A stretch of 64,000 bases of DNA from a virus, in the IMG/VR virus record IMGVR_UViG_3300020048_000085. One strand, written 5' to 3'. The position numbers and the translations under genes are program-made. Below, piece by piece: positions 20,323-61,828 of the stretch. Below the pieces are notes generated by a model that worked only from the letters and a program-made list of their open reading frames with translations, was not told the DNA's origin and did no database searches. How positions within the stretch are numbered: position 1 is the stretch's first letter; each line of letters starts with the position of its first letter.

Positions 20323-20324
20323 AA

Positions 20325-20498
20325 TTATAATTTTATTTTTGATGTATTTATTCCACATTTATTAAAATAATCTAGCATTGCAAATTCTATATATTTTGAC
20401 TTGTTTGTAGTACTATCTAAAATCAAATCGTGTAATTCTGGAGACATAGAAATAGAAATTCTTATTTTTCTATCTTCTTCTTTTTTTAATGTTTTCAT
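20325..20498 (-). CDS. Small ribbon-helix-helix (CopG-like) protein immediately upstream of the GIY-YIG gene
   Basis: A 57-codon ORF (MKTLKKEEDRKIRISISMSPELHDLILDSTTNKSKYIEF...KIKL) with a beta-strand/helix-helix pattern. It is a paralog of the ORF at 63024..63182 and is too short for the ORF track. Confidence 0.35.
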   Translation of the reverse strand: MKTLKKEEDRKIRISISMSPELHDLILDSTTNKSKYIEFAMLDYFNKCGINTSKIKL

Positions 20499-25700: not shown

Positions 25701-26855
25701 ATGGTAATAAACGTAAAGAGTGAGACTGCAATGTCTGGATTTTATATTATATTTAAAGGATCAACTATGAATGAAAAACCTGGTTGGTATGGAATTAGTC
25801 ACCTATGTGAACATATTCTTTGTAAGGCTATATTTCATTTACAAGATACATATCAACAAAAAAATATAAAATGGAATGCATATACTTCGGTAGATACTGT
25901 AGTTTTTTATATGACAGGGATTGATAGACACATAAACAAATATAAAAATGATTTTTTAAATTTATTATTAGATTTTAAACCTACACAAAAACAATTGGAT
26001 AATGAAAAGAAAATTGTTTTAGAAGAGTATAAAATGAGTTTCAATTCACAAATTGAATCTCACTATTTTAATTTACAGAGAAAGATGTTAAGTTATTATA
26101 ATCCTATTGGACTCAGATCTGATATTGAAAATATAACATTACAAGATTGTAATGATTATTTAGATTTATATTTTAAGAATCCAACAAAAATAATAAATGT
26201 ATCAAAATTTAATGATTTTGAAACAGATATAAAATTCAAAGTTGAGATAGATGTTAAACCATTTGAATTTAAAATAAATGATAATTTGTATATTATAACA
26301 TCTGACGATAATACAGATGTACCTAAAGGTATGATACCATTAGAAATTATCACAGAATTTAAAAATAAAGTTAGTATAATTGATGTCTCAACTATGCTTA
26401 CAAAAGATTTTGCATATGCATCATTTGTGTGTGAGATGTTAAGTTCAGGTTTAAATTCTCCATTATATAAAGAGGTTAGAGAAAAATTAGGATTAGTTTA
26501 TTACATAAGTTGTTCATTAGATAAATTAAATGATAAATCTTGTTCAATAAGTATTATCACTAACACATCTAAAAATAATATTGAACGTGTACAACATGAG
26601 ATAAAGAATATATTACAAAACAAAGAAATATATTTAACTCAAGAAAGATTTGATATCATAAAAGATAAGCAACTCACAAAAATTGAAGAAAATGAGATTT
26701 TAAATAATAATATTTCTAAATATATGGAAAATCCTGAATGGATGATTGAAAATATTATAAACACTATAACATTAGATGATGTGTATAGAGTGGTTGATGA
26801 ATATCTAAATTGGGATAATATGTATAAATCTGTAGATATTAATGAATTTTCTTAA
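25701..26855 (+). CDS. M16-family (insulinase/pitrilysin/MPP-like) zinc metallopeptidase
   Basis: An inverted zinc-binding motif HxxEH in the typical context GISHLCEHILCK, close to the N-terminus. The size is consistent with one M16 active unit. Confidence 0.55.
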   Translation: MVINVKSETAMSGFYIIFKGSTMNEKPGWYGISHLCEHILCKAIFHLQDTYQQKNIKWNAYTSVDTVVFYMTGIDRHINKYKNDFLNLLLDFKPTQKQLDNEKKIVLEEYKMSFNSQIESHYFNLQRKMLSYYNPIGLRSDIENITLQDCNDYLDLYFKNPTKIINVSKFNDFETDIKFKVEIDVKPFEFKINDNLYIITSDDNTDVPKGMIPLEIITEFKNKVSIIDVSTMLTKDFAYASFVCEMLSSGLNSPLYKEVREKLGLVYYISCSLDKLNDKSCSISIITNTSKNNIERVQHEIKNILQNKEIYLTQERFDIIKDKQLTKIEENEILNNNISKYMENPEWMIENIINTITLDDVYRVVDEYLNWDNMYKSVDINEFS

Positions 26856-27324: not shown

Positions 27325-27555
27325 ATGAAAAAAATAATAATAAATTATATTTTATATGTTTATCACAATTATATTCAAAATGATGAATTTGATAATATAT
27401 ATAAAGAGTGGGCTAAACCTTTTATGATGGTACTTAAATATATACACAATGTATACATGTGGATATTTTGTATTATATTTTTTCCAGTTATTTTAATCTT
27501 AATGATGATTGATAGCTATATGAAAAAAAATAGAAAAAAAATAAAAAAATTATGA
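27325..27555 (+). CDS. Small hydrophobic protein between clpS and the unfoldase gene
   Basis: 76 aa with a predicted TM helix (IFCIIFFPVILILMMI). It is tightly packed with ATGA-type overlaps on both sides. Confidence 0.35.
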   Translation: MKKIIINYILYVYHNYIQNDEFDNIYKEWAKPFMMVLKYIHNVYMWIFCIIFFPVILILMMIDSYMKKNRKKIKKL

Positions 27556-30095
27556 ATTATTCAAAAGATGTAGAATTTGCGATTAAAACAAGTAAGGATA
27601 TTGCTATTAAAATTGGCTCAAATACAATTAGACCTGAGCATATTTTTTTAGCTATGATTGAGGATGAATATTCTGACGCATGTCTTATTATGAAAGAGTT
27701 AAACTTAAATGTTGACGCAATCAAACAGACTATTTATCAGTGGTCTATGGTTGAACAATCAGGTAAAGGAATAAACAATCTTAGGAAAAATGCAGCAATT
27801 CCTCTTGATATGGAAACAGAGAAAATATTAAAAAGTTCTGTTGTTTTTGCCAAATCAATGGAATCAGATGACGTAGAGATTGATCATGTTTTTTATTCAA
27901 TTTTAGATAATGAAAACAATATAGTTAATTTATTATTAAATAAATCGCCTGGTATTTTAAATAGTTTAAAACGTAGATTGAAGAATGAAGATATTGATGA
28001 TTATACAAACAACTTAAATGAAGATAGTATGGAAGAAGGTATGGAAGAAGGAGAAGTAAAAACAGATTCAAAAAATAAATCAAAAACAAAATTACTTGAT
28101 CAATTTGGTACAAATTTAACAAACTTAGCAAAAGAAGGTAAGTTAGATCCAGTGGTTGGTCGTGTAAATGAGATTAAAAGAATCTCACAAATTTTATCCA
28201 GACGTAAGAAAAATAATCCTGTTTTGATTGGTGAGCCAGGTGTTGGTAAATCAGCTATTGCTGAAGGAATTGCTCAATTAATTGCAGATGGTAAAGTACC
28301 TGAAAATTTACAAAACAAGAGAATCATCACACTTGATATGGGTTCGTTAGTTGCGGGAACTAAATATAGAGGTGAGTTTGAGCAAAGAATGAAAGGTATT
28401 GTTAAAGAAATGGAAGAGAATAGTGATATTATTCTTTTCATTGATGAGATACATACTATTATTGGCGCTGGAGCATCACAAGGATCTCTAGATGCATCTA
28501 ATATGTTAAAACCAGCTTTGGGAAAAGGTACTTTTAGATGTATTGGTGCAACAACATTAGATGAATATCGTAAATATATTGAAAAGGACCCAGCATTAGA
28601 ACGTAGATTTCAAAAAGTTATAGTTGATTCTACTACAAAATCTGAAACATTAGAAATTCTTAAAAATATAAAAGCTCAATATGAGACTCATCATAAAGTT
28701 AAATATACTGATGACGCTTTAATCGCTTGTGTAGAATTATCAGATAAATACATATCAGACAAATTTTTACCTGATAAGGCAATTGATGCACTTGATGAAG
28801 CAGGTGCTATGGTTCATGTTAATAGAACAAGTGATATTCCAGATAAATTAGTAAATCTAAATAATAAAATCAAAGAATCTACTATTTTAAAATTAGATTG
28901 TGTAAAAAATCAAAAATTTGAATTGGCTGCTGAACACAGAGACAATGAGAAACAATGGAAATTAGAAGTTGATGAAATAAGAACAAATTGGAAGCAAGAA
29001 ATATCTAATACTATATCAACTGTAACTAAAGATGATGTGGCAGCAGTTATTTCACTTATGACAAAAATTCCAATTGATAGTGTATCTACAGATGAAAATG
29101 ATAAACTTATCGGTATGCCAGAAAAAGTTAAAAAACTTGTTATTGGTCAAGATGACGCAGTAGATAAAATTGTACAATCTGTTAAAAGATCAAGAATTGG
29201 ATTAAATAGCCATAATAAGCCAGTAGGTACATTTATTTTCTTAGGACCAACAGGAGTAGGTAAAACATACTTAGCAAAAATTATGGCAAAAGAATTATTT
29301 GGTTCCGAGGATTCATTAATTAGAATAGATATGAGTGAATTTATGGAGAAATTTTCTGTATCTCGTTTAGTTGGTGCACCTCCAGGATATGTTGGATATG
29401 AAGATGGTGGAAAATTAACAGAAGCAGTTAGACGCAAACCTTATTCAATTGTTCTTTTCGATGAAATGGAAAAAGCTCATTCAGATGTTCAAAATATTTT
29501 ACTTCAAGTATTAGATGATGGTTTTTTAACTGATAGTAATGGTCGCAAAGTTGATTTTAGAAATACTATTATTATTATGACATCAAATGCTGGTTCTAGA
29601 AAAGTAAAAGATTTTGGGAATGGTATTGGATTTGGTAGTATCTCTTCAAATAATCAAGAAAAGAGAAATGATGTTATAAAAAAAGAACTCGAAAAATTAT
29701 TTAGTCCAGAGTTTTTAAATAGAATTGATGAAATTGTAAATTTCAACTCTTTAAGTAAAGAAAATATCATTTCTATTATTGATGTAGAATGTAAATATTT
29801 GATTAATAATCTTAAAGAAAAAGGTTATGATGTCACAATATCAAACTCACTTAAAGATTACTTAGTTGAAAATGGATATGATGAAAATTATGGTGCAAGA
29901 CCACTCAAGAGAGCAATACAAAAACATATTGAAGATAGACTTATAGACGCTATCATAAGTAAAGAAATTGCTGTAGGTGATACAATATCATTATTATATG
30001 ATACTGAAAGTCAATCTGTTAAAATTTCAAAATTATCACCAAACTTTTTGGTTGATAATGTATTAAAATTAAATGAAAGTACTCCTGAAGTTTAA
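27552..30095 (+). CDS. clpC: ClpA/ClpC-type Hsp100 AAA+ unfoldase (Clp_N domain, two AAA modules, IGF ClpP-docking loop)
   Basis: Clp N-domain at the N-terminus. Walker A motifs GEPGVGKSAIAEG and LGPTGVGKTYLAK. A short UVR-like linker rather than a ClpB M-domain. SNAGSRKVKDFGNGIGFGS aligns with the ClpA IGL ClpP-binding loop, which is absent from ClpB. Confidence 0.85.
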   Translation: MNYSKDVEFAIKTSKDIAIKIGSNTIRPEHIFLAMIEDEYSDACLIMKELNLNVDAIKQTIYQWSMVEQSGKGINNLRKNAAIPLDMETEKILKSSVVFAKSMESDDVEIDHVFYSILDNENNIVNLLLNKSPGILNSLKRRLKNEDIDDYTNNLNEDSMEEGMEEGEVKTDSKNKSKTKLLDQFGTNLTNLAKEGKLDPVVGRVNEIKRISQILSRRKKNNPVLIGEPGVGKSAIAEGIAQLIADGKVPENLQNKRIITLDMGSLVAGTKYRGEFEQRMKGIVKEMEENSDIILFIDEIHTIIGAGASQGSLDASNMLKPALGKGTFRCIGATTLDEYRKYIEKDPALERRFQKVIVDSTTKSETLEILKNIKAQYETHHKVKYTDDALIACVELSDKYISDKFLPDKAIDALDEAGAMVHVNRTSDIPDKLVNLNNKIKESTILKLDCVKNQKFELAAEHRDNEKQWKLEVDEIRTNWKQEISNTISTVTKDDVAAVISLMTKIPIDSVSTDENDKLIGMPEKVKKLVIGQDDAVDKIVQSVKRSRIGLNSHNKPVGTFIFLGPTGVGKTYLAKIMAKELFGSEDSLIRIDMSEFMEKFSVSRLVGAPPGYVGYEDGGKLTEAVRRKPYSIVLFDEMEKAHSDVQNILLQVLDDGFLTDSNGRKVDFRNTIIIMTSNAGSRKVKDFGNGIGFGSISSNNQEKRNDVIKKELEKLFSPEFLNRIDEIVNFNSLSKENIISIIDVECKYLINNLKEKGYDVTISNSLKDYLVENGYDENYGARPLKRAIQKHIEDRLIDAIISKEIAVGDTISLLYDTESQSVKISKLSPNFLVDNVLKLNESTPEV

Positions 30096-37477: not shown

Positions 37478-38638
37478 ATGAACAAAGAATTAATTGAAGG
37501 AGTAAATATTGGAAATTTACCTGATCCATTTCCATACTTAAACAACAATAAAATTAGAAAAATCAAAAGTTCTGGTGATCTTAATGAAGAATACAGGGCA
37601 ATGTACGAAAAAATGGAATTATCTTTATCGACAACTAAAGAAGTTAGAGTAAATGAGGTAGTTACAGGTACAATAAAATCAATAAACCAAAAAGAAATTT
37701 TAATTGATTTTGGATTTAAAGATTTTATATATGTTGAAAAACCAAAATTAAATACAGTAATTACAGAATTAGTAACAGGTGAGATTATTGATGTATTAAT
37801 CACTAGTGTATCAGAAAAACCATATTTAATAAAGGGTTCTATAACTGAACTTATCAAGCAGAATGTTCATAATAAAATGAAATCTTATTATGACGGTAAT
37901 TTAACACTTATTGCAGAAGTTAAATCAATTATTCCAGCAGGATATAATATGAATATTATTATGGATAATGTTAAGATAGAAGCATTTATGCCAAATACAC
38001 TAGCAGATGTAAACAAATTAACAGACTCTGAATCTATCTTAGGTTCAACATTTGAAGTTATGTTAGAAACATTACAACAAGAAAAAGGAGTATATGTTGT
38101 ATCAAGAAGAAAGTATTTACAATCATTAATACCAGAAGAAATAACTAAATTAAAACATGATATTGTTTATCAAGGTTATATTACAGGCACAACACCATTT
38201 GGAATATTTGTTCAATTTAAAGCAACAGAAGATGGTCCTAATTGCTTAACTGGTATGGTTCATAAAGCTAATATTGCAGAAAATTGGCAAAGTAAATGGG
38301 ATAGTATACTTCCTGGTATGACAATCGAATTTTATGTTAAAGAAGTAATAAAAGGAAATAAAATAATCTTAACACAAATATTAAAAGAATCCTTATGGGA
38401 TAGTATTAAAGTTGGCAAAATATTAACTGGTAAAATAAGAGTAATTAAAAATTTTGGTGCACTTATAGCATTAGATGATGAAACTACTGGTTTAATTCAA
38501 ACGTCATATATTAATAGATATGATAAAAAATTAAATGTTGGTGATGAAGTTAAAGTTAAAGTAATATCTTTAATAAAAGATGATAGAAAAATTTATCTAA
38601 ATTTCGCTGATGCAAAATACAAAAGAGATGATGTATAA
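37478..38638 (+). CDS. Ribosomal protein S1-like protein with four S1 (OB-fold) domains
   Basis: Repeated S1 signatures, for example YQGYITGTTPFGIFVQFKATEDGPNCLTGMVHKANI and LTGKIRVIKNFGALIALDDETTGLIQTSYI...VGDEVKVKVISLIKDDRKIYL. Confidence 0.6.
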   Translation: MNKELIEGVNIGNLPDPFPYLNNNKIRKIKSSGDLNEEYRAMYEKMELSLSTTKEVRVNEVVTGTIKSINQKEILIDFGFKDFIYVEKPKLNTVITELVTGEIIDVLITSVSEKPYLIKGSITELIKQNVHNKMKSYYDGNLTLIAEVKSIIPAGYNMNIIMDNVKIEAFMPNTLADVNKLTDSESILGSTFEVMLETLQQEKGVYVVSRRKYLQSLIPEEITKLKHDIVYQGYITGTTPFGIFVQFKATEDGPNCLTGMVHKANIAENWQSKWDSILPGMTIEFYVKEVIKGNKIILTQILKESLWDSIKVGKILTGKIRVIKNFGALIALDDETTGLIQTSYINRYDKKLNVGDEVKVKVISLIKDDRKIYLNFADAKYKRDDV

Positions 38639-38640
38639 AA

Positions 38641-38672
38641 AAAGAGAGAATCAAATGATTCTCTCTTTTTTG
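38641..38672 (+). terminator. Intrinsic terminator after the S1-like gene
   Basis: Stem gagagaatc / gattctctc (38644-38665) with loop aaat and a T-run of 6. Confidence 0.65.
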
Positions 38673-38721: not shown

Positions 38722-38757
38722 TAATAAAAAAAACACCACAAATTGTGGTGTTTTTTA
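38722..38757. terminator. Bidirectional intrinsic terminator (serves nusG on the minus strand)
   Basis: Stem acaccaca / tgtggtgt with a 3-nt loop, an A7 run upstream and a T5 run downstream. Confidence 0.6.
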
Positions 38758-38764
38758 ATGATAA

Positions 38765-39283
38765 CTAATCTAAATCTTTAATAAATTGTGTTCCAATTAA
38801 ATCTAATATAACTTCTCTGTCGAATACATTAACTGCAACTTTATATTTTTGTTTTTGTTTATTAATATCAATATTCTTTATAACACCTTTGAATGTATTA
38901 AATGGACCATCAATTATTCTTACTTTTTCTTTAATATAAAAAACATCTATATCACTAACAACATCATTAGATGGTGTTTTATCTAATAATCTATTAACTT
39001 CAGATTCTCTTAATGGTTTAGTCAATAATGATTGAACACCATCTATATATTTAACAAATCCAGCAACCTCATTTACCAAATCACATTCAACAAAAATATA
39101 ACCTGGAATAATAATTTTTTCTACATTTATTTTTTTACCATTTCTTAATTGTTGAGCTTTATTTGAAGGTACTAATATATTTATTATTAAATTATTTAGT
39201 TCTTTTCTTTTTAATTCAGCTTCAATTAATTCTTTTACTTTTTTTTCTTTACCATTTGCAACTTTTATAACATACCATTTCAT
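38765..39283 (-). CDS. nusG: NusG-like transcription antitermination/elongation factor (NGN + KOW domains); the start is at the internal Met (MKWYVIKV), not the 39337 start of the longest ORF
   Basis: NGN domain WYVIKVANGKEKKVKELIE... and KOW motif VRIIDGPFNTFKGVIKNIDI...KVAVNVFDREV. The 18-codon upstream extension is rejected because it runs into a 16-bp perfect terminator hairpin. Confidence 0.7.
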   Translation of the reverse strand: MKWYVIKVANGKEKKVKELIEAELKRKELNNLIINILVPSNKAQQLRNGKKINVEKIIIPGYIFVECDLVNEVAGFVKYIDGVQSLLTKPLRESEVNRLLDKTPSNDVVSDIDVFYIKEKVRIIDGPFNTFKGVIKNIDINKQKQKYKVAVNVFDREVILDLIGTQFIKDLD

Positions 39284-39327
39284 GTTTTTTATTTTATTTT
39301 TATAATTATTATATAAACATTTAAAAT

Positions 39328-39362
39328 AAAAGTTCAAAAAATATTATATTTTTTGAACTTTT
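39328..39362 (-). terminator. Strong intrinsic terminator (16-bp perfect stem) between two minus-strand genes
   Basis: aaaagttcaaaaaata - tta - tattttttgaactttt. On the minus strand it is followed by a U-rich tract. It lies between 39367..39837 and nusG. Confidence 0.65.
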
Positions 39363-39366
39363 ATTT

Positions 39367-39837
39367 TTAATATCTTCTTATAATAGTTTTATATTTTGGT
39401 GGTTCTACTGAAGGTATATAATTAGGCTCACCATTAGCTTTATCATTATACTCATCTCTGAATATATTATTTTTTTCTATGTTTTGATTTCTAGGTATTG
39501 ATATAGAATCATCATTTTTTTTTCTATCTCTTTTTTCATCTTTTTTTAATCTTTGATTAATAAATTCTCTAATATAATTATGGGCAGATTTTAAATCATT
39601 CTTCTTTTTATTTCTTAACCTGATGTTTTCACCTTCTGATGTTTTTTTAAAAATCTTACAAATAAAAAAACTACCAGATTTTTCTATTTTAGCAAAATAA
39701 TAGGGAGTACTATTTCCAGATTTATATTTTATCTCACCAGCATATACTTTAGGATTATATTTGGCTTTACCACTAGTAAATAAATTATCATCTATGATAT
39801 TATTTTTCCAAGTTTCGAATGTTTTAATATTTTTCAT
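39367..39837 (-). CDS. Basic protein starting MKNIKTFETW (dispersed FKxFE-family N-terminus), function unknown
   Basis: It has the N-terminal family motif. The C-terminal half is Lys/Arg-rich. Confidence 0.45.
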   Translation of the reverse strand: MKNIKTFETWKNNIIDDNLFTSGKAKYNPKVYAGEIKYKSGNSTPYYFAKIEKSGSFFICKIFKKTSEGENIRLRNKKKNDLKSAHNYIREFINQRLKKDEKRDRKKNDDSISIPRNQNIEKNNIFRDEYNDKANGEPNYIPSVEPPKYKTIIRRY

Positions 39838-39895
39838 ATCATCTATATATAAAACTTTTCATTTTATTTTTTCTATATAAAAATAAATTCAACAA

Positions 39896-40018
39896 ATGGG
39901 TAAGTCAAGAAAAGTAAAAGTTAGTAAAATTAAGAAAAATAGTAAGAATTATACTAAGAATCAGAAGAGAATGCAAGATAATATGAAAATAATTAATGAA
40001 TTAAAAAACAATAAATAA
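39896..40018 (+). CDS. Tiny, highly basic ORF (40 aa, MGKSRKVKVSKIKKNSKNYTKNQKR...)
   Basis: In-frame ATG to TAA with a TATATAAAAATAAA element 22 nt upstream. It is under 60 aa and so absent from the ORF track. The call is speculative. Confidence 0.25.
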   Translation: MGKSRKVKVSKIKKNSKNYTKNQKRMQDNMKIINELKNNK

Positions 40019-40024
40019 ATTAGA

Positions 40025-40300
40025 ATGAAAAATTCTTTCCTAAAAATGAGAATAGATGATGATGAATATCAAAAATTTCAAGAATCATGTGAAAATAAAG
40101 GCAAAACTATGAGCGAAGTTATGAGAGCCTTTATTAACTCATATAATAACGGTAAAAATATAATTCTATTAGATATTGATAATGACACATTTGATCAAAG
40201 TCTAAACTTATGTAAAGAGAAAAAAATTAAACTTAATGATGTTGTGAAATATTTATTGCACAAAGCAATTAAAAATAAAGACAAATTAAATTTTAAATAA
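40025..40300 (+). CDS. Small RHH/CopG-like DNA-binding protein candidate
   Basis: LKMRIDDDEYQKFQESCENKGKTMSEVMRAFINSY is a strand-helix-helix pattern, with a second similar segment downstream. Confidence 0.35.
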   Translation: MKNSFLKMRIDDDEYQKFQESCENKGKTMSEVMRAFINSYNNGKNIILLDIDNDTFDQSLNLCKEKKIKLNDVVKYLLHKAIKNKDKLNFK

Positions 40301-41714: not shown

Positions 41715-42281
41715 ATGATAGAATTTTTTAACTCTCTAGATATGTTTAGTAAAACATTATTTTTTATGGCTTTTGGAACAGGTGTATTATTTATTATCCA
41801 AAATTTAATTGTGTTTTTAGGAATGGATCATGATAGTGATATTGATACTGATTCAGATATTGATTCAGAACACAACTCTGGTAAATCATTTGGTTGGTTT
41901 TCATTTAAAAACGTTGTTAATTTTATTCTAATTTTTTCATTAGTAGGATTAATAACAGTAGGTTCTGGAATATCAAAACCAGTATCATTATTAATAGCAT
42001 CAATAGCAGGTATTATATTTGTTTATGTGATGATATTATTATTCAATCTAATGAAAAAACTCTCTCAAGATAATACACCAACATTAACTGATTTAGTTGG
42101 AGAAACTGGTGTAGTATATTTAAAAATACCTGCAGTAGGAAATGGAAAAATAAAAATAATGCATGGCGGAGCAATTCAAATATTAGATGCGTGTTCAGAA
42201 GGTATAGTAATCACAAGAGATTCAAATGTTAAGGTGTCTAAAATTGTAGGACATACTATAATAGTAGAAGAAATAAAATAA
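41715..42281 (+). CDS. NfeD-like membrane protein (short form, YuaF/YqiJ-like) partnered with flotillin
   Basis: N-terminal transmembrane helices plus a C-terminal beta-rich OB-like segment (GVVYLKIPAVGNGKIKIMHGGAIQILDA). It sits immediately upstream of an SPFH protein, as in bacterial nfeD-floT operons. Confidence 0.55.
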   Translation: MIEFFNSLDMFSKTLFFMAFGTGVLFIIQNLIVFLGMDHDSDIDTDSDIDSEHNSGKSFGWFSFKNVVNFILIFSLVGLITVGSGISKPVSLLIASIAGIIFVYVMILLFNLMKKLSQDNTPTLTDLVGETGVVYLKIPAVGNGKIKIMHGGAIQILDACSEGIVITRDSNVKVSKIVGHTIIVEEIK

Positions 42282-42328
42282 TCAATAAAAATAATTTATA
42301 AATAAAAACAATTTAATTTAAAAAAAAC

Positions 42329-43831
42329 ATGAGTAGTACATTAACGTTAATTTTAATCGTAGTAGTTGCGATTTCAGTATTTTCAATTATTGTTGCCTTA
42401 GTAAAAAGGTACAAACGTTGCCCATCAGATAAACTTTTAGTTATTTATGGTAAAACAGGCAAAACTGATGGTAAAGCATCAGCAGCAAAAGTAATTCATG
42501 GTGGTGGTGCATTTGTTTGGCCAGTCATTCAGGATTATACTTTCTTAGATTTGAAACCAATTTCAATTGATATTAATTTGAAAGGTGCATTATCTAAACA
42601 AAACATACGTATTGATGTTCCATCAGTATTTACAGTTGCAATATCAGGTGGAGATGGAATACGTGAGAATGCTGCTGAGAAATTACTTGGACTTCAAAAA
42701 CAAGAAATAGCACAATTAGCACAAGATATTATTCTTGGTCAAATGCGTTTAGTTATCGCAATGATGAACATTGAAGAAATAAATGCTGACCGTGACAAAT
42801 TTCTTGAAAATATTCAAAAAAATCTTGAAGATGAGCTTCAAAAAATTGGTCTAAGACTTATTAATGTAAATATCACAGATATTAGTGATGAATCAAACTA
42901 CATTAAATCATTAGGACAGAATGCAGCATCAGGAGCTATTAATGAAGCTGCAATTCAAGTTGCACAGAAGAATAAAGATGGTGCTATTGGTGTTGCAACA
43001 GCAGATAGAGAAAAACGTGTGAGTGTTGCTGCTGCGCAAGCAGAAGCACAAATTGGTGAAGCTGATGCAAGTCAAAAAATGAGAGCAGAAACTGCTGCAT
43101 TAAATGCAAAGGCTATTGCTGGTGAAAATAGTGCATTTGTTGAAATAGCAAAAACTAATGCTAGTAGACAAATTGCAGAAGCTGATGCAAAGAAAGACTC
43201 AGTTACTGCTGAAAATGTAAAAGCAGCAGAAGCAAAACAAGCATCATATGATGCTGAAAAATTAGCAGAAACAAAACGTGCTGAAAGAGATAAAGCAACT
43301 CAATATGCAAATATTGTTGTACCTGCTGAAATAGCAAAAGAAAAACTTATTGTTGAAGCTGCTGCAAATGCAGAATCAACTAGAGTAATTGCAAAAGGTG
43401 ATGCTGATGCAATGTTTGCTAAAATGGAAGCAGAAGCAAGAGGTATAAATGAAATACTAACAAAGCAAGCTGAAGGTTTTGCAAAGTTAGTTCAAGCTGC
43501 TGGTGGAGATGCTGCAAAAGCTGTTCAATTGATGATTGCTGATAAATTACCAGAACTTACAAGAATTCAAGTTGATGCTATCAAAAATATCAAATTTGAT
43601 AAGATTACAGTTTGGGATAATGGTGGAAATGGCTCAGGAAATTCTACTGCAAATTTTGCAAAAAATTTATTTTCAATGATTCCACCACTTACTGACATTT
43701 TCAAACAAGTTGGTGCTGAATTACCAGCATTTATGCAAGGTGCAGGAGAACAAAAAACAAATGAACTTGAAGCAGAAAACTCTGTCACTAAAGTAATAAA
43801 AGACGAAACAACTGATAATAGTAAATCATAA
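42329..43831 (+). CDS. Flotillin-like SPFH/band-7 protein (FloT/YqiK type) with Ala/Glu-rich coiled-coil repeats
   Basis: N-terminal TM anchor and an SPFH core (VIHGGGAFVWPVIQDYTFLDLKP...). There is a long EA-repeat region (AAQAEAQIGEADASQKMRAETAALNAKA...). GC is visibly higher than in the surrounding sequence. Confidence 0.75.
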   Translation: MSSTLTLILIVVVAISVFSIIVALVKRYKRCPSDKLLVIYGKTGKTDGKASAAKVIHGGGAFVWPVIQDYTFLDLKPISIDINLKGALSKQNIRIDVPSVFTVAISGGDGIRENAAEKLLGLQKQEIAQLAQDIILGQMRLVIAMMNIEEINADRDKFLENIQKNLEDELQKIGLRLINVNITDISDESNYIKSLGQNAASGAINEAAIQVAQKNKDGAIGVATADREKRVSVAAAQAEAQIGEADASQKMRAETAALNAKAIAGENSAFVEIAKTNASRQIAEADAKKDSVTAENVKAAEAKQASYDAEKLAETKRAERDKATQYANIVVPAEIAKEKLIVEAAANAESTRVIAKGDADAMFAKMEAEARGINEILTKQAEGFAKLVQAAGGDAAKAVQLMIADKLPELTRIQVDAIKNIKFDKITVWDNGGNGSGNSTANFAKNLFSMIPPLTDIFKQVGAELPAFMQGAGEQKTNELEAENSVTKVIKDETTDNSKS

Positions 43832-44102: not shown

Positions 44103-44135
44103 AAAAAAAAATCCTGCTTTCGCAGGATTTTTTTA
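44103..44135. terminator. Intrinsic terminator (A-run, stem atcctgc / gcaggat, T-run)
   Basis: Perfect 7-bp GC-containing stem with tetraloop tttc, flanked by an A8 run and a T7 run. Confidence 0.6.
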
Positions 44136-47979: not shown

Positions 47980-48708
47980 ATGTCAAAAATTAAAACAAAT
48001 AAAGAATATACTATTAAAATAGAACATCCAACATTAGGTATTTATTACTATTCATATTGTGGATTTAATGATAAATTTAGACCATTTGTATTTACAAAGA
48101 ATTTATCAAAAGTACAAACATGGAAAACAACAAAATTTGTTGAGAAACATATAGAGTCAATTCTATCAAAAATAAATCAAAAGTCTGGTAAAATTTATTT
48201 ATCACTTGGAACTGAACCAGATGAAAATTTATCCAGAGAATTAAAAGAAAATTCTATTATATCAAGAAAAATGAATTATTATATAATAGAAAAAACAGAT
48301 AATATTAGATCAAAGATAGGTTTGATAACAGCAGAAGAAAATATAAAAGAATTAGATGTTACTCTAATACAAGATTCTGATATGATTGCAAATGAATATA
48401 TTAATATTAAAAATAATTTTTATATTAACAAAATAAATAAAATTTCTAATGATAATATAAACGTAAGCGAAATTATAACAAATATTGATAATACATTACT
48501 ATCTATGAATAGTTTTGATTGTATACAAAAAAAATTTTATGATAAAGTAAATAAATATAATAAAGATATATTTTGTTATAAAGAATCTTGTAAAATTATT
48601 AAAGAAGAAAAAAACTATAATGGATTATATTTAGAAATATATGATGCATCTAATAAATTTAGAAAATTAAAGATACAAACATTAAGACAACTACAATCAA
48701 ATGAATAA
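47980..48708 (+). CDS. Hypothetical protein (242 aa)
   Basis: ORF only. Confidence 0.45.
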   Translation: MSKIKTNKEYTIKIEHPTLGIYYYSYCGFNDKFRPFVFTKNLSKVQTWKTTKFVEKHIESILSKINQKSGKIYLSLGTEPDENLSRELKENSIISRKMNYYIIEKTDNIRSKIGLITAEENIKELDVTLIQDSDMIANEYINIKNNFYINKINKISNDNINVSEIITNIDNTLLSMNSFDCIQKKFYDKVNKYNKDIFCYKESCKIIKEEKNYNGLYLEIYDASNKFRKLKIQTLRQLQSNE

Positions 48709-48738
48709 AAATTTGCAATTTGCAAATTGCAAATTTTT
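48707..48738. repeat. Triple TTGCAA palindromic repeat (aaatTTGCAAtTTGCAAaTTGCAAattt) between convergent genes; a terminator and/or operator-like site
   Basis: Three copies of the self-complementary hexamer TTGCAA at 7-8 nt spacing, within an A-run / T-run context. Confidence 0.45.
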
Positions 48739-49348
48739 ATATTAATTCTTTAACCAAGTCAATTTTACTATTAGAACATATCCAACCAACTCTTTTTTGT
48801 CCTGTTTTTGGATCAGTTAAAAATTTATTATACCTGCAACCAATAGACAACAAATCATCTTTAATTTTTCTAGTATCTTCACCAAATATTGCATATGCTT
48901 TATCTGAATATTTAATTATTTCAATATTATCCTTTTTGTCAAATGTGTTTATTGATTTAATGTGTTTTAATTTAGATACTTTTGGAGCTTTTGTAATTTC
49001 AGTTTTTTCAGGTGAATACATCAAGAAAACTTCAGTTAATGACATTAGATTACCTTCTTTATCTTCCCAATGTTGAGAAAAATTGTGTTGAGAAATTTTG
49101 TGTTTTTTTAGTAACGTTCTAACCAAAGCAGTATCAATCTTTGTATTTAAATTTCCAATTTTAACTAATTCTAATGGTGTTGTCCAACTACCCTTACCTA
49201 ATCCACTTTTAACTTTATGAGATTTCATTTCAAGATATACAGAATTATCTTCTTTATCTAATAATATTTCTGCTGTAACATCATTGTAGTCATATTCCCA
49301 TTGATAGTAGCTTTTATTCTTTACTAACACTTCAAGATTATCAATCAT
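48737..49348 (-). CDS. Hypothetical protein (203 aa)
   Basis: ORF. The plus-strand ORF 48720..49076 overlapping it is treated as spurious. Confidence 0.45.
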   Translation of the reverse strand: MIDNLEVLVKNKSYYQWEYDYNDVTAEILLDKEDNSVYLEMKSHKVKSGLGKGSWTTPLELVKIGNLNTKIDTALVRTLLKKHKISQHNFSQHWEDKEGNLMSLTEVFLMYSPEKTEITKAPKVSKLKHIKSINTFDKKDNIEIIKYSDKAYAIFGEDTRKIKDDLLSIGCRYNKFLTDPKTGQKRVGWICSNSKIDLVKELI

Positions 49349-53768: not shown

Positions 53769-54078
53769 TATTATGATTATAGATAAAACATATGGAATTT
53801 GGGATTTAATAAATCCTCCAATAATTGATGATATTGCATATTATTTATGTATGAAAGATTATATTTTTTATTGTAATCATTGTATTTATTTAAATGATTT
53901 TAATGTTATAACAAAATATGATCCACCATGTCAAAGTTGGGTTAAAGTTGTAAGATGTTATAAATGGTGTGATAACATTGTTAATTATTATGAAAAAGCA
54001 ACACACATAGTAGAGAAAAAAATTAGAAAAGAAAAATTAACAAAATTATATAATGAAGAAAAAAGTGGTTGTTTTTAG
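53758..54078 (+). CDS. Small protein paralogous to 37155..37397 (IIDKTYGIWDLINP...DIAYYL ... RKEKLTKLYN)
   Basis: Shared N-terminal and tail motifs. Confidence 0.45.
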   Translation: MSFNIMIIDKTYGIWDLINPPIIDDIAYYLCMKDYIFYCNHCIYLNDFNVITKYDPPCQSWVKVVRCYKWCDNIVNYYEKATHIVEKKIRKEKLTKLYNEEKSGCF

Positions 54079-54718
54079 TGGAGCCGGATTAGATGCTGAA
54101 AGTGGAGTTTCAACTTTCAGAACAGATAACGGATTGTGGGAAAATTATGATGTAAAAGATGTTGCAAATATTGATGGATGGAGAAATAATAGACAATTAG
54201 TATTAAACTTTTATAATGAAAGACATAAACAATTAGATGCAGTAGAACCGAATTCTGCACATTATTATCTTGCTGAATTAGAAAAAAAACATGATGTTTT
54301 TCACATAACTCAAAATATTACAGATTTACTTGAACGAGCTGGTTGTACAAATGTGTTACACCTCCATGGAGAATTAACAAAAATGAGAGGATTTAATAGT
54401 GGAACAATTTATGATTGGGATAAAGACTTTGATATTCAAACTCATAGTGTAGATGAAAATGGTGATACACTTCGTCCACATGTAGTTTGGTTTGGAGAAG
54501 ATGTTCCAAACATGGTAAAAGCTGAGAAATTAGTTAGAGATGCTGATGTGTTAATTATTATTGGCACGTCTTTATTAGTTTATCCTGCAGCAAACTTAGT
54601 ATATAAAGTTAAATTTAGAACTCCTATATATTATATTGATCCATCAAATTCAGATATTGATGATGTTATACACATCAAAGATGTTGCAACAGATGGTGTT
54701 AAAAAATTAAATTTATAA
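54053..54718 (+). CDS. Sir2-family NAD-dependent deacylase / ADP-ribosyltransferase (sirtuin), apparently lacking the zinc-binding cysteines
   Basis: GAGLDAESGVSTFR, TQNITDLLERAG and LHLHGEL are present in the canonical order. No CxxC pairs are visible in the small-domain region. Confidence 0.75.
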   Translation: MKKKVVVFSGAGLDAESGVSTFRTDNGLWENYDVKDVANIDGWRNNRQLVLNFYNERHKQLDAVEPNSAHYYLAELEKKHDVFHITQNITDLLERAGCTNVLHLHGELTKMRGFNSGTIYDWDKDFDIQTHSVDENGDTLRPHVVWFGEDVPNMVKAEKLVRDADVLIIIGTSLLVYPAANLVYKVKFRTPIYYIDPSNSDIDDVIHIKDVATDGVKKLNL

Positions 54719-58822: not shown

Positions 58823-58838
58823 GATGTGTTTTTTATTT
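58806..58838 (+). terminator. Intrinsic terminator overlapping the stop of 57968..58822
   Basis: Stem aacacatc / gatgtgtt with loop aatttaa and a T-run. Confidence 0.55.
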
Positions 58839-61794: not shown

Positions 61795-61828
61795 AAAAAC
61801 GTGGTGTATTATGCACCACGTTTTTTAT
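61795..61828. terminator. Bidirectional intrinsic terminator between ligA and the convergent GIY-YIG gene
   Basis: Stem aacgtggtg / caccacgtt followed by T6. Confidence 0.6.

What the first reader, a model, noticed from the sequence alone, without database searches (positions are those of the whole stretch)
38765..39283. Virus-encoded NusG paralogue
This is a full NGN + KOW NusG-like protein. Specialised NusG paralogues (UpxY-like) are a hallmark of Bacteroidetes operon-specific antitermination. A phage copy could license read-through of the many intrinsic terminators seen between its own genes. The annotated longest ORF overran a 16-bp terminator hairpin, and the start was corrected to the internal Met.
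Basis: partly seen in the sequence, partly recalled or inferred. Interest (0 to 1): 0.55.

Follow-up and report, generated by a model that had tools for sequence, protein, structure and literature searches.

The report
Streamlined NusG gene in huge phage

Summary
Window 38765..39283 (-) encodes a 172-aa NGN + KOW NusG homologue, and the ATG start is correct. The longer TTG start lies inside a hairpin that ends the upstream gene.

The window is a Mahaphage-like huge-phage fragment: 22% GC, no Shine-Dalgarno motifs, and relatives on contigs up to 711 kb and in IMG/VR.

The protein belongs to a phage-only lineage of at least 47 sequence clusters (99% bootstrap), under purifying selection. Its nearest cellular relatives are housekeeping Bacteroidota NusGs (39-46% identity), not UpxY, LoaP or RfaH. 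It fails the curated cut-offs of all four families.

Compared with host NusG the lineage:
- has lost an 8-12 aa NGN loop;
- has lost the Trp-position and His residues that face the gate loop and non-template DNA;
- has fixed a Phe at the position of RfaH F56;
- keeps a beta-barrel KOW with the central Phe of the Rho/S10 loop.

The gene has its own conserved promoter-like block and its own terminator. It sits tail-to-tail with a phage S1 gene.

Best reading (inferred, confidence about 0.45): a general elongation and coupling factor that replaces or outcompetes host NusG on host RNA polymerase. The proposed read-through of phage terminators is untested and poorly motivated, because the hairpins lie mostly at convergent gene ends.

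The parts
38765..39283 (-). Phage nusG coding sequence, 172 aa, ATG 39283 to TAG 38765-38767
   Evidence: ORF and sequence. Pfam NGN 2e-15, TIGR00922 6.9e-32, PHROG 6386 8e-24. Same start in all 47 homologues. dN/dS 0.08-0.12 in the two least saturated pairs of relatives.
38984..39283 (-). NGN domain (residues 1-100), the part that binds RNA polymerase. It carries F64 at the position of RfaH F56. It lacks the Trp-position/His pair and the 8-12 aa loop of cellular NusG.
   Evidence: Pfam residues 1-99. AlphaFold2 pLDDT about 90. Column-by-column comparison with 78 Bacteroidota NusGs, E. coli NusG and RfaH, and B. subtilis NusG.
38948..38983 (-). Short flexible linker (residues 101-112)
   Evidence: AlphaFold2 pLDDT below 50 for residues 103-112. 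The linker is shorter than in cellular NusG.
38774..38947 (-). KOW domain (residues 113-170), predicted as a five-stranded beta-barrel. It keeps GPF..F.G and the central Phe of the Rho/S10 loop (V153-F154-D155-R156).
   Evidence: AlphaFold2 strands 120-169. phmmer matches to KOW-only PDB chains 6duq_M, 2kvq_G and 1nz9_A. Residue mapping.
39319..39371 (-). Long hairpin that starts at the stop codon of the upstream ORF; probable terminator of that gene. Its 3' arm contains the spurious TTG start at 39337.
   Evidence: 26-nt arms, 96% complementary. RNA fold -19.7 kcal/mol, z = -7.7. A hairpin sits at the same position in relatives L001 and L004/L005, with a different stem sequence.
39284..39337 (-). 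Conserved upstream block with a promoter-like TTGAAC-N18-TATAAT (39337..39308) and an A-rich leader without a Shine-Dalgarno motif
   Evidence: Promoter scan. The same TTGAAC-N18-TATAA[T/C] and leader are conserved in L001 and L004/L005, although the proteins are only 66-70% identical. It is not a repeated motif in the window. Promoter function is inferred, not shown.
38728..38756 (-). Terminator-like hairpin 9 nt after the nusG stop codon (A6-CACCACAA / TTGTGGTG-T6)
   Evidence: 14-nt perfect arms. RNA fold -14.8 kcal/mol, z = -5.0. Hairpins also follow nusG in L001, L004, L006 and L007.
39367..39837 (-). Upstream co-directional ORF of 156 aa. It is restricted to the same phage lineage; function unknown.
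   Evidence: 50 homologues, all on the same kinds of contigs as the NusG clade, none with a Pfam domain. Syntenic in L001, L002 and L091. AlphaFold2 core is confident, but no fold match is better than E = 0.2.
37478..38671 (+). Convergent neighbour: a 386-aa multi-S1-domain (ribosomal protein S1-like) gene with its own terminator hairpin at 38638-38671
   Evidence: Pfam S1 1.8e-19. NCBIfam rpsA-like but below cut-offs. The NusG/S1 tail-to-tail pair is conserved in L001, L002, L003 and L091. Hairpin -19.5 kcal/mol, z = -8.1.
39896..40300 (+). Divergent neighbour: a 40-aa ORF plus a 91-aa RelB/Arc-like ribbon-helix-helix protein. It could regulate the ORF156-nusG unit.
   Evidence: Pfam RelB 1.4e-6. 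PHROG Arc-like repressor families. Conserved beside the module in L001, L002 and L091. An imperfect palindrome lies at 39858-39892 in the shared intergenic region. The regulatory link is inference only.

Best explanation
This is a phage-encoded, streamlined NusG. It belongs to a lineage that is found only in Mahaphage-like huge phages, whose nearest cellular relatives are the housekeeping NusGs of Bacteroidota.

Proposed mechanism:
1. After infection the gene is transcribed from its own promoter-like element as a short unit bounded by hairpins.
2. The NGN domain binds the beta' clamp helices of the host RNA polymerase, at the site that host NusG uses. An RfaH-like Phe (F64) in the binding patch favours tight binding and competition with host NusG.
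3. Once bound, it bridges the cleft over the transcription bubble. This is expected to keep the polymerase processive on the 78% A+T template.
4. The beta-barrel KOW domain on a short tether links the polymerase to a partner. The lead ribosome (via protein S10) is the most likely partner; Rho is possible.
5. Together with the phage's own S1 protein, this would couple transcription to translation of the Shine-Dalgarno-less, A-rich phage mRNAs.

Shown here: the domain architecture, fold, lineage, purifying selection, gene context and residue pattern. Inferred: polymerase binding, competition with host NusG, the effect on elongation, and the KOW partner.
For: Identity and fold:
- NGN + KOW by Pfam, NCBIfam and PHROG models.
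- AlphaFold2 model, and Foldseek top matches to NusG bound to RNA polymerase, in expressome complexes and in antitermination complexes.

Phage setting:
- Relatives are in IMG/VR and on contigs of 235-711 kb.
- The S1 gene and the 1412-aa gene of the window match Mahaphage genomes, Lak Prevotella phages and Tenacibaculum/Chryseobacterium jumbo phages best.
- The gene is not in a secE-nusG-rplK context.

Housekeeping descent:
- The best family model is TIGR00922 nusG.
- After the phage clade, the next-best proteins are Bacteroidota NusGs. One of them, P0057, lies in tuf-secE-nusG-rplKAJL.
- All 80 best loci among 185,579 species genomes are Bacteroidota, at 39-46% identity.

Functional constraint:
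- The clade forms its own split with 99% bootstrap support.
- dN/dS is 0.08-0.12 in the two least saturated pairs.

Binding patch kept:
- W3-Y4-V5 and P60-G61-Y62-I63-F64-V65 are conserved.
- Phe occupies the RfaH F56 position in 44 of 47 phage sequences, against Leu in 68 of 78 host-type NusGs. F56 is needed for RfaH to bind polymerase, and tight binding lets RfaH outcompete NusG (PMC7593976).

KOW kept:
- GPF..F.G and F154, which corresponds to E. coli F165, are invariant.

Translation link:
- 0 of 90 genes have a Shine-Dalgarno-like motif, and the upstream regions are A-rich.
- The S1 gene is a conserved convergent neighbour.
- B. fragilis NusG is anti-pausing, and transcription-translation coupling has been proposed for Bacteroides (PMC11685472).
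Against: - No phage NusG has been tested experimentally, so every functional step is inference.
- The face that in E. coli NusG touches the beta gate loop (D77, W80, H81, R84) is remodelled. The His that is invariant in 78 of 78 Bacteroidota NusGs is Ala/Gly/Ser in the phage clade. The Trp position is Glu in 45 of 47 (Ala in the window). The following 8-12 aa loop is deleted in all 47. The classical anti-pausing contact may therefore be missing.
- In the window's subgroup the Rho/S10 loop reads V-F-D instead of I-F-G, and the conserved Pro of the last KOW strand is replaced. Partner binding may be altered.
- The protein fails the curated NusG equivalog cut-off (110.6 against 135.7 bits).
- I did not establish whether this phage lineage also encodes its own RNA polymerase (one search was not conclusive on this).
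Confidence: 0.45

Rival explanations
1. RfaH-like excluder that needs no recruitment signal. The phage NusG binds host polymerase more tightly than host NusG and displaces it. This removes NusG-assisted Rho termination (and any NusG-assisted hairpin termination) from phage transcription, while its KOW keeps ribosome coupling. The net effect is general antitermination by exclusion.
For: - Phe occupies the RfaH F56 position in 44 of 47 clade members (the role of F56 is described in PMC7593976).
- The Gly of the I164-F165-G166 Rho-contact loop is Asp or Glu in 13 of 47, including the window (V-F-D), and the conserved Pro170 is lost.
- The gate-loop and non-template-DNA contacts are lost.
- RfaH evolved from NusG by the same kinds of steps (PMC7593976, PMC7819879).
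Against: - 34 of 47 clade members keep I/V-F-G, so loss of Rho binding is not a feature of the whole clade.
- In + strand gene blocks the strand carries more G than C (GC skew +0.21 to +0.26 in several windows), so the mRNAs there are C-poor. By general knowledge that makes them poor Rho substrates.
- No binding data exist.
Confidence: 0.22
2. Operon-specific antiterminator of the UpxY, LoaP or RfaH kind. The protein is recruited at a cis element in particular phage transcription units and carries the polymerase through the hairpin terminators inside them.
For: - LoaP is the second-best family model (88 bits).
- Specialised NusG paralogues are common on mobile elements (PMC7819879).
- A few terminator-like hairpins do lie between co-directional genes, at 39319-39371, 44105-44134 and 58803-58835.
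- The PHROG family is labelled 'transcription antiterminator'.
Against: - It scores below the curated cut-offs of UpxY (51.8 against 100), LoaP (88.2 against 125) and RfaH (36.1 against 144.5). Its UpxY score is lower than that of housekeeping NusGs.
- The gene does not head an operon, and no UpxZ-like partner is present.
- Its KOW is predicted as a beta-barrel, not an autoinhibiting helical hairpin.
- The residues that other NusGs use to read non-template DNA are degenerate or deleted.
- 10 of 29 perfect hairpins lie in the 11 convergent junctions.
- I found no repeated leader element. The only conserved motif I examined is private to nusG.
Confidence: 0.12
3. Host shut-off factor or decoy. 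The protein occupies the NusG site on host polymerase, or titrates S10 or Rho through its KOW domain. It does this without providing NusG activity, and so damages host gene expression to the phage's benefit.
For: - The gate-loop contact residues, including the His invariant in Bacteroidota NusG, are lost and the NGN loop is deleted, while the clamp-helix patch is kept.
- The best whole-chain structural match of the model is the closed, autoinhibited T. maritima NusG 2LQ8 (TM 0.74; PMC7819879).
Against: - If the phage depends on host polymerase, a pure poison would hit its own genes too.
- Both domains are under strong purifying selection together, as expected for a working two-domain adaptor.
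- The domain packing in the model is not reliable (pTM 0.55).
Confidence: 0.08
4. Not viral. The window would be part of a very A+T-rich reduced bacterial genome, and this would simply be its nusG.
For: - 22% GC.
- Cellular-looking genes are nearby: a ClpB-like ATPase, NAD-dependent ligase, S1, thymidine kinase and Sir2.
- No capsid, portal or terminase gene was identified in these 64 kb. The only structural hit is a weak 'virion structural protein' match at E = 3.8e-4.
- One homologue of the upstream ORF is filed under a Dojkabacteria MAG.
Against: - The gene is not in the universal secE-nusG-rplK context (compared).
- Relatives are in IMG/VR.
- Other window genes match curated huge-phage genomes and cultured jumbo phages of Bacteroidota best.
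- No member of the clade was found among 185,579 species genomes; the best identity there is 46%.
- The window has no tRNA genes, and most of its ORFs have no family match.
Confidence: 0.03

Closest known systems
Housekeeping NusG of Bacteroidota (for example P0057 from a Flavobacteriales MAG; B. fragilis NusG was studied in PMC11685472)
   Same: - Two-domain NGN + beta-barrel KOW architecture.
- 39-46% identity over the full length, the nearest cellular relatives.
- The same beta2-beta3 hairpin pattern (R-x-G-K-K), the PGY motif, GPF..F.G, and the central Phe and Arg of the KOW loop.
   Different: - The phage protein is 8-15 residues shorter: no N-terminal extension, an 8-12 aa NGN loop deleted, and a shorter linker.
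- GF[ILV]G becomes S[IV]LK.
- The invariant His becomes A/G/S.
- Leu becomes Phe at the RfaH F56 position.
- TP[LV]EL becomes x[ILM]LDL in the last KOW strand.
- It scores 106-128 bits on TIGR00922, against 162-187 bits for cellular NusGs.
- It is a stand-alone gene, not in the secE-nusG-rplK operon.
RfaH (E. coli; the NusG paralogue that excludes NusG and blocks Rho)
   Same: - Phe at the F56 position of the polymerase-binding patch.
- A shortened loop after beta4.
- A stand-alone gene.
- In the window's subgroup, an altered residue in the Rho-contact loop.
   Different: - Only 36 bits on the RfaH model, against a cut-off of 144.5.
- The KOW is predicted as a beta-barrel, not an alpha-hairpin.
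- No HTTT or ops-reading residues.
- The central Phe of the Rho/S10 loop is kept.
UpxY (Bacteroides capsule-operon NusG paralogues)
   Same: NGN + KOW architecture; associated with the Bacteroidota world.
   Different: - 51.8 bits against a cut-off of 100, lower than housekeeping NusGs score on the same model.
- It is not the first gene of a polysaccharide operon, and there is no UpxZ neighbour.
- Its beta2-beta3 hairpin resembles that of NusG, not the class-1 UpxY sequence quoted in PMC11685472.
LoaP (Firmicutes antiterminator of polyketide operons)
   Same: Second-best family model; similar length.
   Different: 88 bits against a cut-off of 125. Housekeeping Bacteroidota NusGs score as high or higher on the same model (85-109 bits), so the score carries no specific signal.
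Other phage-borne NusG homologues: PHROG 6386, the NusGs of huge phages LR756501 and LR756504, nusG of Microcystis phage MaAM05, and the 'antitermination protein' of Sinorhizobium phage phi3LM21
   Same: Phage-carried NGN + KOW proteins. One such gene is annotated, without comment, in a supplementary file of the huge-phage survey PMC7162821.
   Different: - The LR756501 and LR756504 copies are 182-186 aa and keep the loop and N-terminus.
- They pass the NusG equivalog cut-off (167 and 145 bits).
- They lie in other contexts and fall outside the clade.
- They look like separate, less diverged captures. The window's lineage is the derived, phage-specific one.

Membership tests
NusG/Spt5 superfamily | N-terminal NGN domain | tested here: met
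   Pfam PF02357 scores 57.5 bits against a gathering score of 22.2, over residues 1-99. The AlphaFold2 NGN has pLDDT about 90. NGN-only PDB chains superpose with TM 0.64-0.80 normalised to the target.
NusG/Spt5 superfamily | C-terminal KOW beta-barrel | tested here: met
   The Pfam KOW motif is just below threshold (18.9 against 22.3). However, phmmer matches KOW-only PDB chains at E = 2e-5, TIGR00922 aligns through model position 165 of 172, and AlphaFold2 predicts five strands at residues 120-169.
Housekeeping bacterial NusG (NCBIfam TIGR00922 equivalog) | Score at or above the curated cut-off (135.7 bits) | tested here: not met
   The window protein scores 110.6 bits and six other clade members score 106-128. 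Four Bacteroidota NusGs score 162-187, and the huge-phage copies in LR756504 and LR756501 score 145 and 167.
Housekeeping bacterial NusG | Position in the secE-nusG-rplK-rplA gene cluster | tested here: not met
   The window neighbours are an orphan ORF, an S1-like gene and an RHH gene. The cellular homologue P0057 has the canonical context, as does E. coli nusG.
Housekeeping bacterial NusG | Gate-loop / non-template-DNA face: E. coli W80, H81 and R84; B. subtilis W76, Y77, R80 and K97 | tested here: not met
   Only the basic residue is kept (Lys in 47 of 47). The Trp position is Glu in 45 of 47 (Ala in the window). The His/Tyr position is A/G/S. The loop carrying K97 is deleted (residue roles are from PMC9963633, and the Delbeau et al. 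preprint). Bacteroidota NusGs also lack the Trp, but they keep the His in 78 of 78.
Housekeeping bacterial NusG | KOW loop I164-F165-G166(-R167) that contacts Rho and S10 | tested here: inconclusive
   The window reads V153-F154-D155-R156. Across the clade the loop is I/V, then F (47 of 47), then G in 34, D in 8 and E in 5, then R in 45. Binding cannot be judged from sequence.
UpxY family (NF033644) | Score at or above the curated cut-off (100 bits) | tested here: not met
   The window scores 51.8 bits and other clade members 36-58. Housekeeping Bacteroidota NusGs score 58-87 on the same model.
UpxY family | First gene of a capsular polysaccharide operon, followed by upxZ, with an ops-like leader | tested here: not met
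   The gene is bounded by hairpins and faces a convergent S1 gene. No polysaccharide genes lie within 10 kb. An ops-like leader could not be tested.
LoaP (NF033641) | Score at or above the curated cut-off (125 bits) | tested here: not met
   88.2 bits.
RfaH (TIGR01955) | Score at or above the curated cut-off (144.5 bits) | tested here: not met
   36.1 bits.
RfaH | Autoinhibited alpha-helical KOW that refolds on recruitment at ops | tested here: not met
   AlphaFold2 predicts a beta-barrel KOW. This is a prediction only; fold switching cannot be excluded by computation.
RfaH | Phe at position 56 of the polymerase-binding patch | tested here: met
   F64 aligns with RfaH F56 and E. coli NusG L70. 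The alignment is gap-free in this region, and it reproduces the correspondences published in PMC7593976 (F56 with Leu, F81 with G95, and L145-I146-N147 with I164-F165-G166).
PHROG 6386 ('transcription antiterminator') | Significant match over the full profile | tested here: met
   E = 8.1e-24, residues 1-161 to profile positions 13-170 of 179. The family name is an annotation, not a tested function.

The most novel reading that the evidence does not exclude
A phage-specific NusG lineage has been rebuilt into a constitutive, signal-independent counterpart of RfaH. It would grip the clamp helices of host polymerase tightly through the acquired Phe. It has shed both the pause-promoting DNA pocket and the host-type gate-loop contact. 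Together with the conserved neighbouring phage S1 protein, it would convert host polymerase-ribosome pairs into a phage-dedicated expression machine that is insensitive to host NusG/Rho control.
Probability: 0.2. Interest if true: 0.7.

Novelty: new variant of a known kind. Interest (0 to 1): 0.45.

Why it matters
NusG is the only transcription factor shared by all cellular life, and its specialised paralogues are a model for how a general factor becomes a dedicated one. Phages are known to manipulate NusG through proteins such as lambda N, but I found no paper that describes a phage carrying and reshaping its own NusG.

This lineage offers a natural experiment. It shows which NusG surfaces can be removed (the loop, the gate-loop and DNA face) and which must stay (the clamp-helix patch, the KOW barrel). 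It also gives a concrete handle on how huge phages with 78% A+T genomes and no Shine-Dalgarno sites get transcribed and translated in Bacteroidota.

It can be tested directly with the recombinant B. fragilis polymerase system that already exists (PMC11685472).

If it is only a spare copy of host NusG, it is an ordinary auxiliary gene of a huge phage.

Tried and rejected
1. Rooting the NusG tree on RfaH. Distances were saturated and the root fell inside the phage clade. I replaced this with an unrooted split analysis. The position of the clade relative to Bacteroidota versus other phyla is still only weakly resolved (66%), because only two outgroup sequences were available.
2. I could not obtain real UpxY or LoaP sequences for a tree. 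Classification against those families therefore rests on the curated HMMs.
3. The conserved TTGAAC-N18-TATAAT upstream of nusG as a general phage promoter. Rejected: 6 occurrences in the window against 3.6 +/- 2.0 in shuffles. Sigma-70-like sites overall are not enriched (179 against 212).
4. Host NusG pauses at TTNTTT and the phage avoids that motif or replaces NusG for this reason. There is no avoidance: 4.5 per kb observed against 4.4 expected. B. fragilis NusG is reported to be anti-pausing. I dropped this as the main rationale.
5. The upstream 156-aa ORF as a recognisable partner (Nus factor, sigma or anti-sigma). No Pfam, NCBIfam or PHROG hit, no PDB sequence hit, and no fold match better than E = 0.2.
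6. Whether Mahaphages carry a cellular-type beta' subunit. The tblastn of E. coli RpoC listed no huge-phage record among the 40 rows shown (77 further records were not listed), so this stays open. The search did show that several 'phage' records with NusG hits are bacterial DNA.
7. Literature searches for phage-encoded NusG found nothing relevant. The huge-phage survey mentions NusG only in one supplementary annotation file.
8. The closed-state resemblance of the model to T. maritima NusG. I do not rely on it, because pTM is 0.55 and no inter-domain error estimate was available.
Full report
WHAT IS THERE

On the minus strand, an ORF from ATG 39283 to TAG 38765-38767 encodes 172 residues beginning MKWYVIKV.
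- Pfam finds the NusG N-terminal (NGN) domain over residues 1-99 (57.5 bits, gathering score 22.2). It finds a KOW motif just below threshold (18.9 against 22.3).
- The NCBIfam housekeeping nusG model aligns almost end to end, residues 3-163 to model positions 1-165 of 172.
- PHROG 6386, labelled 'transcription antiterminator', matches at 8e-24.
- phmmer against PDB sequences finds B. subtilis NusG best (1.9e-22), and also KOW-only chains (2e-5).
- An AlphaFold2 model built on 72 homologues (mean pLDDT 83) shows an alpha/beta NGN (residues 1-100), a disordered linker (103-112) and a five-stranded beta-barrel (113-170).
- Its Foldseek matches in the PDB are NusG structures, free and bound to polymerase or to the ribosome.

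The observation 'full NGN + KOW NusG-like protein' is therefore correct at the stated coordinates.

THE START CODON AND THE HAIRPINS

The longest ORF begins at TTG 39337. That codon lies inside the 3' arm of an inverted repeat at 39319-39371. The repeat has 26-nt arms at 96% complementarity and a perfect 21-bp stem at 39323-39367. As RNA it folds at -19.7 kcal/mol, z = -7.7. It starts at the stop codon of the upstream ORF (39367-39369) and is the longest inverted repeat in the 64-kb window.

Relatives L001 and L004/L005 have a hairpin at the same place with an unrelated stem sequence. That is what one expects of a structure kept for its shape, and it most simply serves as the terminator of the upstream gene.

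All 47 members of the protein's clade start M-[K/N]-[W/Y]-[Y/F]. A gene caller on an ENA contig did produce the long form.

Between the hairpin and the ATG lies a block that is conserved in L001 and L004/L005. It holds TTGAAC-N18-TATAA[T/C] and then an A-rich leader. This is promoter-like, but it is not a repeated phage motif.

Nine bases after the stop codon there is a second hairpin at 38728-38756 (-14.8 kcal/mol, z = -5.0). The convergent S1 gene has its own hairpin at 38638-38671. The gene therefore looks like a short transcription unit of its own.

WHERE THE WINDOW COMES FROM

- The window has 22% GC and no tRNA genes.
- It is a mix of orphan ORFs and genes typical of very large phages: a ClpB-like ATPase, an SbcC-like protein, NAD-dependent ligase, thymidine kinase, an S1-domain protein, an SPFH/NfeD pair and Sir2.
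- Proteins 66-70% identical to the NusG lie on IMG/VR contigs and on JGI/ENA contigs of 235 kb and 531 kb with the same gene order. The cluster of one relative is recorded on a contig of 711 kb.
- The window's S1 protein (47-53% identity) and its 1412-aa protein (38% identity over 97% of its length) match the 630-735-kb 'Mahaphage' genomes best. Lak Prevotella phages also appear among the matches to both proteins, and Tenacibaculum and Chryseobacterium jumbo phages among the matches to the 1412-aa protein.
- The huge-phage survey predicted Bacteroidetes hosts for that clade, and noted that S1-carrying huge phages rarely have Shine-Dalgarno sites (PMC7162821).
- Consistent with this, none of about 90 genes in the window has a Shine-Dalgarno-like 4-mer, and the 20 nt before start codons are 51-74% A at every position except -1 (31% A, 60% T).

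I conclude the gene is phage-borne and the host is probably a member of the Bacteroidota. No capsid, portal or terminase gene lies in these 64 kb, so the viral assignment rests on relatives.

WHICH KIND OF NusG

A search of 5.8 billion proteins gives two tiers:
- First, 47 clusters of 163-173 aa at 45-71% identity, all from metagenomes and none with an organism name.
- Then housekeeping NusGs of Bacteroidota, 176-186 aa, at 39-45% identity.

One of the second tier, P0057, lies in tuf-secE-nusG-rplK-rplA-rplJ-rplL.

A scan of one genome from each of 185,579 species returned only Bacteroidota among the best 80 loci, at 39-46% identity, and no member of the short clade. The scan is pattern-seeded, so it is somewhat biased towards Bacteroidota.

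On curated models the window protein scores as follows:

| Model | Score (bits) | Curated cut-off (bits) |
|---|---|---|
| nusG (TIGR00922) | 110.6 | 135.7 |
| LoaP (NF033641) | 88.2 | 125 |
| UpxY (NF033644) | 51.8 | 100 |
| RfaH (TIGR01955) | 36.1 | 144.5 |

Six other clade members behave the same way (nusG 106-128, UpxY 36-58). Four cellular Bacteroidota NusGs score 162-187 on nusG and 58-87 on UpxY. The phage protein is thus less UpxY-like than the housekeeping factor itself.

In an unrooted neighbour-joining analysis the 47 sequences form their own split in 99% of 300 bootstraps, and they are not nested among the 78 sampled Bacteroidota NusGs. Mean distances are 1.05 to Bacteroidota NusG, 1.35 to B. 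subtilis NusG and 1.76 to E. coli NusG.

dN/dS is 0.08 and 0.12 in the two least saturated pairs.

The NusG copies of huge phages LR756504 and LR756501 are different. They are 186 and 182 aa, keep the loop, pass the nusG cut-off (145 and 167 bits), lie in other contexts and fall outside the clade. Lak phage records gave no hit. NusG has therefore probably entered huge phages more than once, and the window's lineage is the old, derived one.

WHAT HAS CHANGED AND WHAT HAS BEEN KEPT

I aligned the 47 phage sequences with:
- 78 Bacteroidota NusGs translated from the genome loci;
- E. coli NusG and RfaH taken from the MG1655 genome;
- B. subtilis NusG.

The alignment reproduces the published correspondences: RfaH F56 with the NusG Leu, RfaH F81 with NusG G95, and RfaH L145-I146-N147 with NusG I164-F165-G166 (PMC7593976).

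Kept in the phage clade:
- the strands that form the clamp-helix-binding sheet (W3-Y4-V5 and P60-G61-Y62-I63-F64-V65);
- the basic beta2-beta3 hairpin;
- the basic residue equivalent to E. coli R84;
- the KOW signature GPF..F.G;
- the central Phe and Arg of the Rho/S10 loop.

Changed in the phage clade:
1. Phe replaces Leu at the RfaH F56 position in 44 of 47 sequences, whereas 68 of 78 Bacteroidota NusGs have Leu. In RfaH this Phe is needed for polymerase binding, and tight binding lets RfaH outcompete NusG.
2. The pair corresponding to E. coli W80-H81 is Glu plus Ala/Gly/Ser. The His is invariant in all 78 Bacteroidota NusGs. In E. coli NusG, D77, W80, H81 and R84 contact the beta gate loop. 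In pro-pausing NusGs the same Trp and Arg hold the non-template DNA.
3. GF[ILV]G becomes S[IV]LK, and the following 8-12 residues are deleted in all 47. These include the position of B. subtilis K97.
4. The last KOW strand reads x[ILM]LDL instead of TP[LV]EL.
5. The loop Gly is Asp or Glu in 13 of 47 sequences, including the window (V153-F154-D155).
6. The N-terminal extension and part of the linker are gone.

That test is not met: the patch is present and, if anything, more hydrophobic.

HOW IT MOST LIKELY WORKS

The simplest model consistent with all of this has four parts:
- The protein binds the clamp helices of the host polymerase in place of host NusG.
- It keeps the polymerase processive on an extremely A+T-rich template.
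- It uses its KOW barrel to hold a partner, most plausibly ribosomal protein S10.
- In this way it couples transcription with translation of leader-poor, A-rich mRNAs.

The conserved tail-to-tail pairing with a phage S1 gene fits a module devoted to expression of phage genes. So does the literature view that Bacteroides NusG is anti-pausing and that coupling is likely in Bacteroides. I give this model about 0.45.

Because the gate-loop face is remodelled and a Phe has been gained, a sharper variant is possible: a signal-independent RfaH analogue that excludes host NusG and thereby Rho. I give it about 0.2. It is weakened because most clade members keep the I/V-F-G loop.

- Every family test for it failed.
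- The gene does not head an operon.
- The DNA-reading residues are gone.
- The hairpins are not where an antiterminator would be needed. Terminator-like sites are indeed enriched (14 against 1.8 expected in 20 kb; 29 perfect hairpins against 11.4 in shuffles). But 10 of them occupy the 11 convergent junctions, and only about four convincing ones lie in the 66 co-directional junctions.

A decoy or shut-off role (about 0.08) and a non-viral origin (about 0.03) are the remaining rivals.

WHAT IS KNOWN

Phage-borne NusG homologues exist in databases:
- PHROG 6386;
- about seven NusG-fold proteins in the BFVD viral structure set;
- nusG in Microcystis phage MaAM05, and an 'antitermination protein' in Sinorhizobium phage phi3LM21;
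- one annotated CDS in a supplementary file of the huge-phage survey.

Several other 'phage' hits are bacterial DNA, because the same records carry a full cellular-type rpoC.

I found no paper that discusses or tests a phage NusG. The library searched is incomplete, so this is not proof that none exists.

VERDICT

This is a real gene, correctly delimited. It is a phage-specific, streamlined variant of housekeeping-type NusG, not a UpxY-like paralogue. Its function is plausible but untested. Interest is moderate: a NusG specialist would want to test it, but a huge phage carrying another piece of the expression machinery is not in itself surprising.

Noticed in passing
window 37478..38638 (+): A 386-aa protein made of several S1 RNA-binding domains (ribosomal protein S1-like, below all rpsA cut-offs). 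It is 47-53% identical to genes in the 630-735-kb Mahaphage genomes and is also found in Lak Prevotella phages. It is always tail-to-tail with the phage nusG in this lineage.
   Followed up: partly
window 39367..39837 (-): A 156-aa ORF just upstream of nusG. It is restricted to the same phage lineage (50 homologues). It has a confidently predicted five-strand sheet plus a 30-residue helix, a disordered Pro/Lys-rich tail and a conserved C-terminal K-T-I-I-R-R-[F/Y]. It has no sequence or fold match to anything known.
   Followed up: yes
window 39838..40300: A 40-aa ORF and a RelB/Arc-like ribbon-helix-helix gene are transcribed divergently from ORF156-nusG. An imperfect palindrome (39858-39892) lies in the shared 58-nt intergenic region and could be an operator. 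The arrangement is conserved in relatives.
   Followed up: partly
window, all intergenic regions: Perfect A-tract/stem/T-tract hairpins sit at almost every convergent gene junction (10 hairpins in 11 junctions) but rarely between co-directional genes. They look like bidirectional terminators that mark the ends of transcription units.
   Followed up: partly
window, 20 nt upstream of about 90 start codons: No Shine-Dalgarno-like 4-mer upstream of any gene. Upstream positions are 51-74% A, except position -1 (31% A, 60% T). Stop codons: TAA 63, TGA 22, TAG 5.
   Followed up: yes
L093 (LR756501.1 309933-320469), nusG at 4992-5540: The 735-kb phage carries a cell-type NusG (167 bits, passes the nusG cut-off). 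By my reading of the translated neighbours it lies among epimerase- and glycosyltransferase-like genes; these were not scanned against any family library. The setting recalls UpxY at polysaccharide operons and is unrelated to the window's lineage.
   Followed up: partly
'phages' collection records AFYI01000006, AGRM01000005, CAKLQF/CAKLQH020000005, OR844998, OR846602, MT836236 and others: Records labelled as phages that carry NusG also carry a full-length cellular-type rpoC (47-99% identical to E. coli). They are bacterial DNA in the phage collection and inflate the apparent number of phage NusGs.
   Followed up: partly
window 41715..43831 (+): An NfeD-like gene followed by an SPFH/Band-7 gene, a membrane-scaffold pair usually seen in bacteria.
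   Followed up: no
window 27552..30095 (+): An 847-aa ClpB/ClpA-like double AAA+ ATPase (PHROG 4871, E = 3.9e-255). Relative L091 also has a ClpS-like gene next to its copy.
   Followed up: no
window 19303..20358 (-) and 61809..62792 (-): Two paralogous genes of the same unknown phage family (PHROG 20046), about 42 kb apart.
   Followed up: no
window 54053..54718 (+) and 25701..26855 (+): A Sir2-family protein (3e-40) and an M16 (insulinase-like) peptidase homologue.
   Followed up: no
window 48705..48740: A perfect 18 + 18 nt palindrome (ATAAAAATTTGCAATTTG / CAAATTGCAAATTTTTAT) at a convergent gene junction. It contains a repeated TTGCAA core.
   Followed up: no
AlphaFold2 model of the NusG (model m7a19112e3dbc): The best whole-chain structural match (TM 0.74) is the closed, autoinhibited form of Thermotoga maritima NusG (2LQ8). 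In that form the KOW packs on the NGN and hides the binding sites. With pTM 0.55 this may be a modelling artefact.
   Followed up: no
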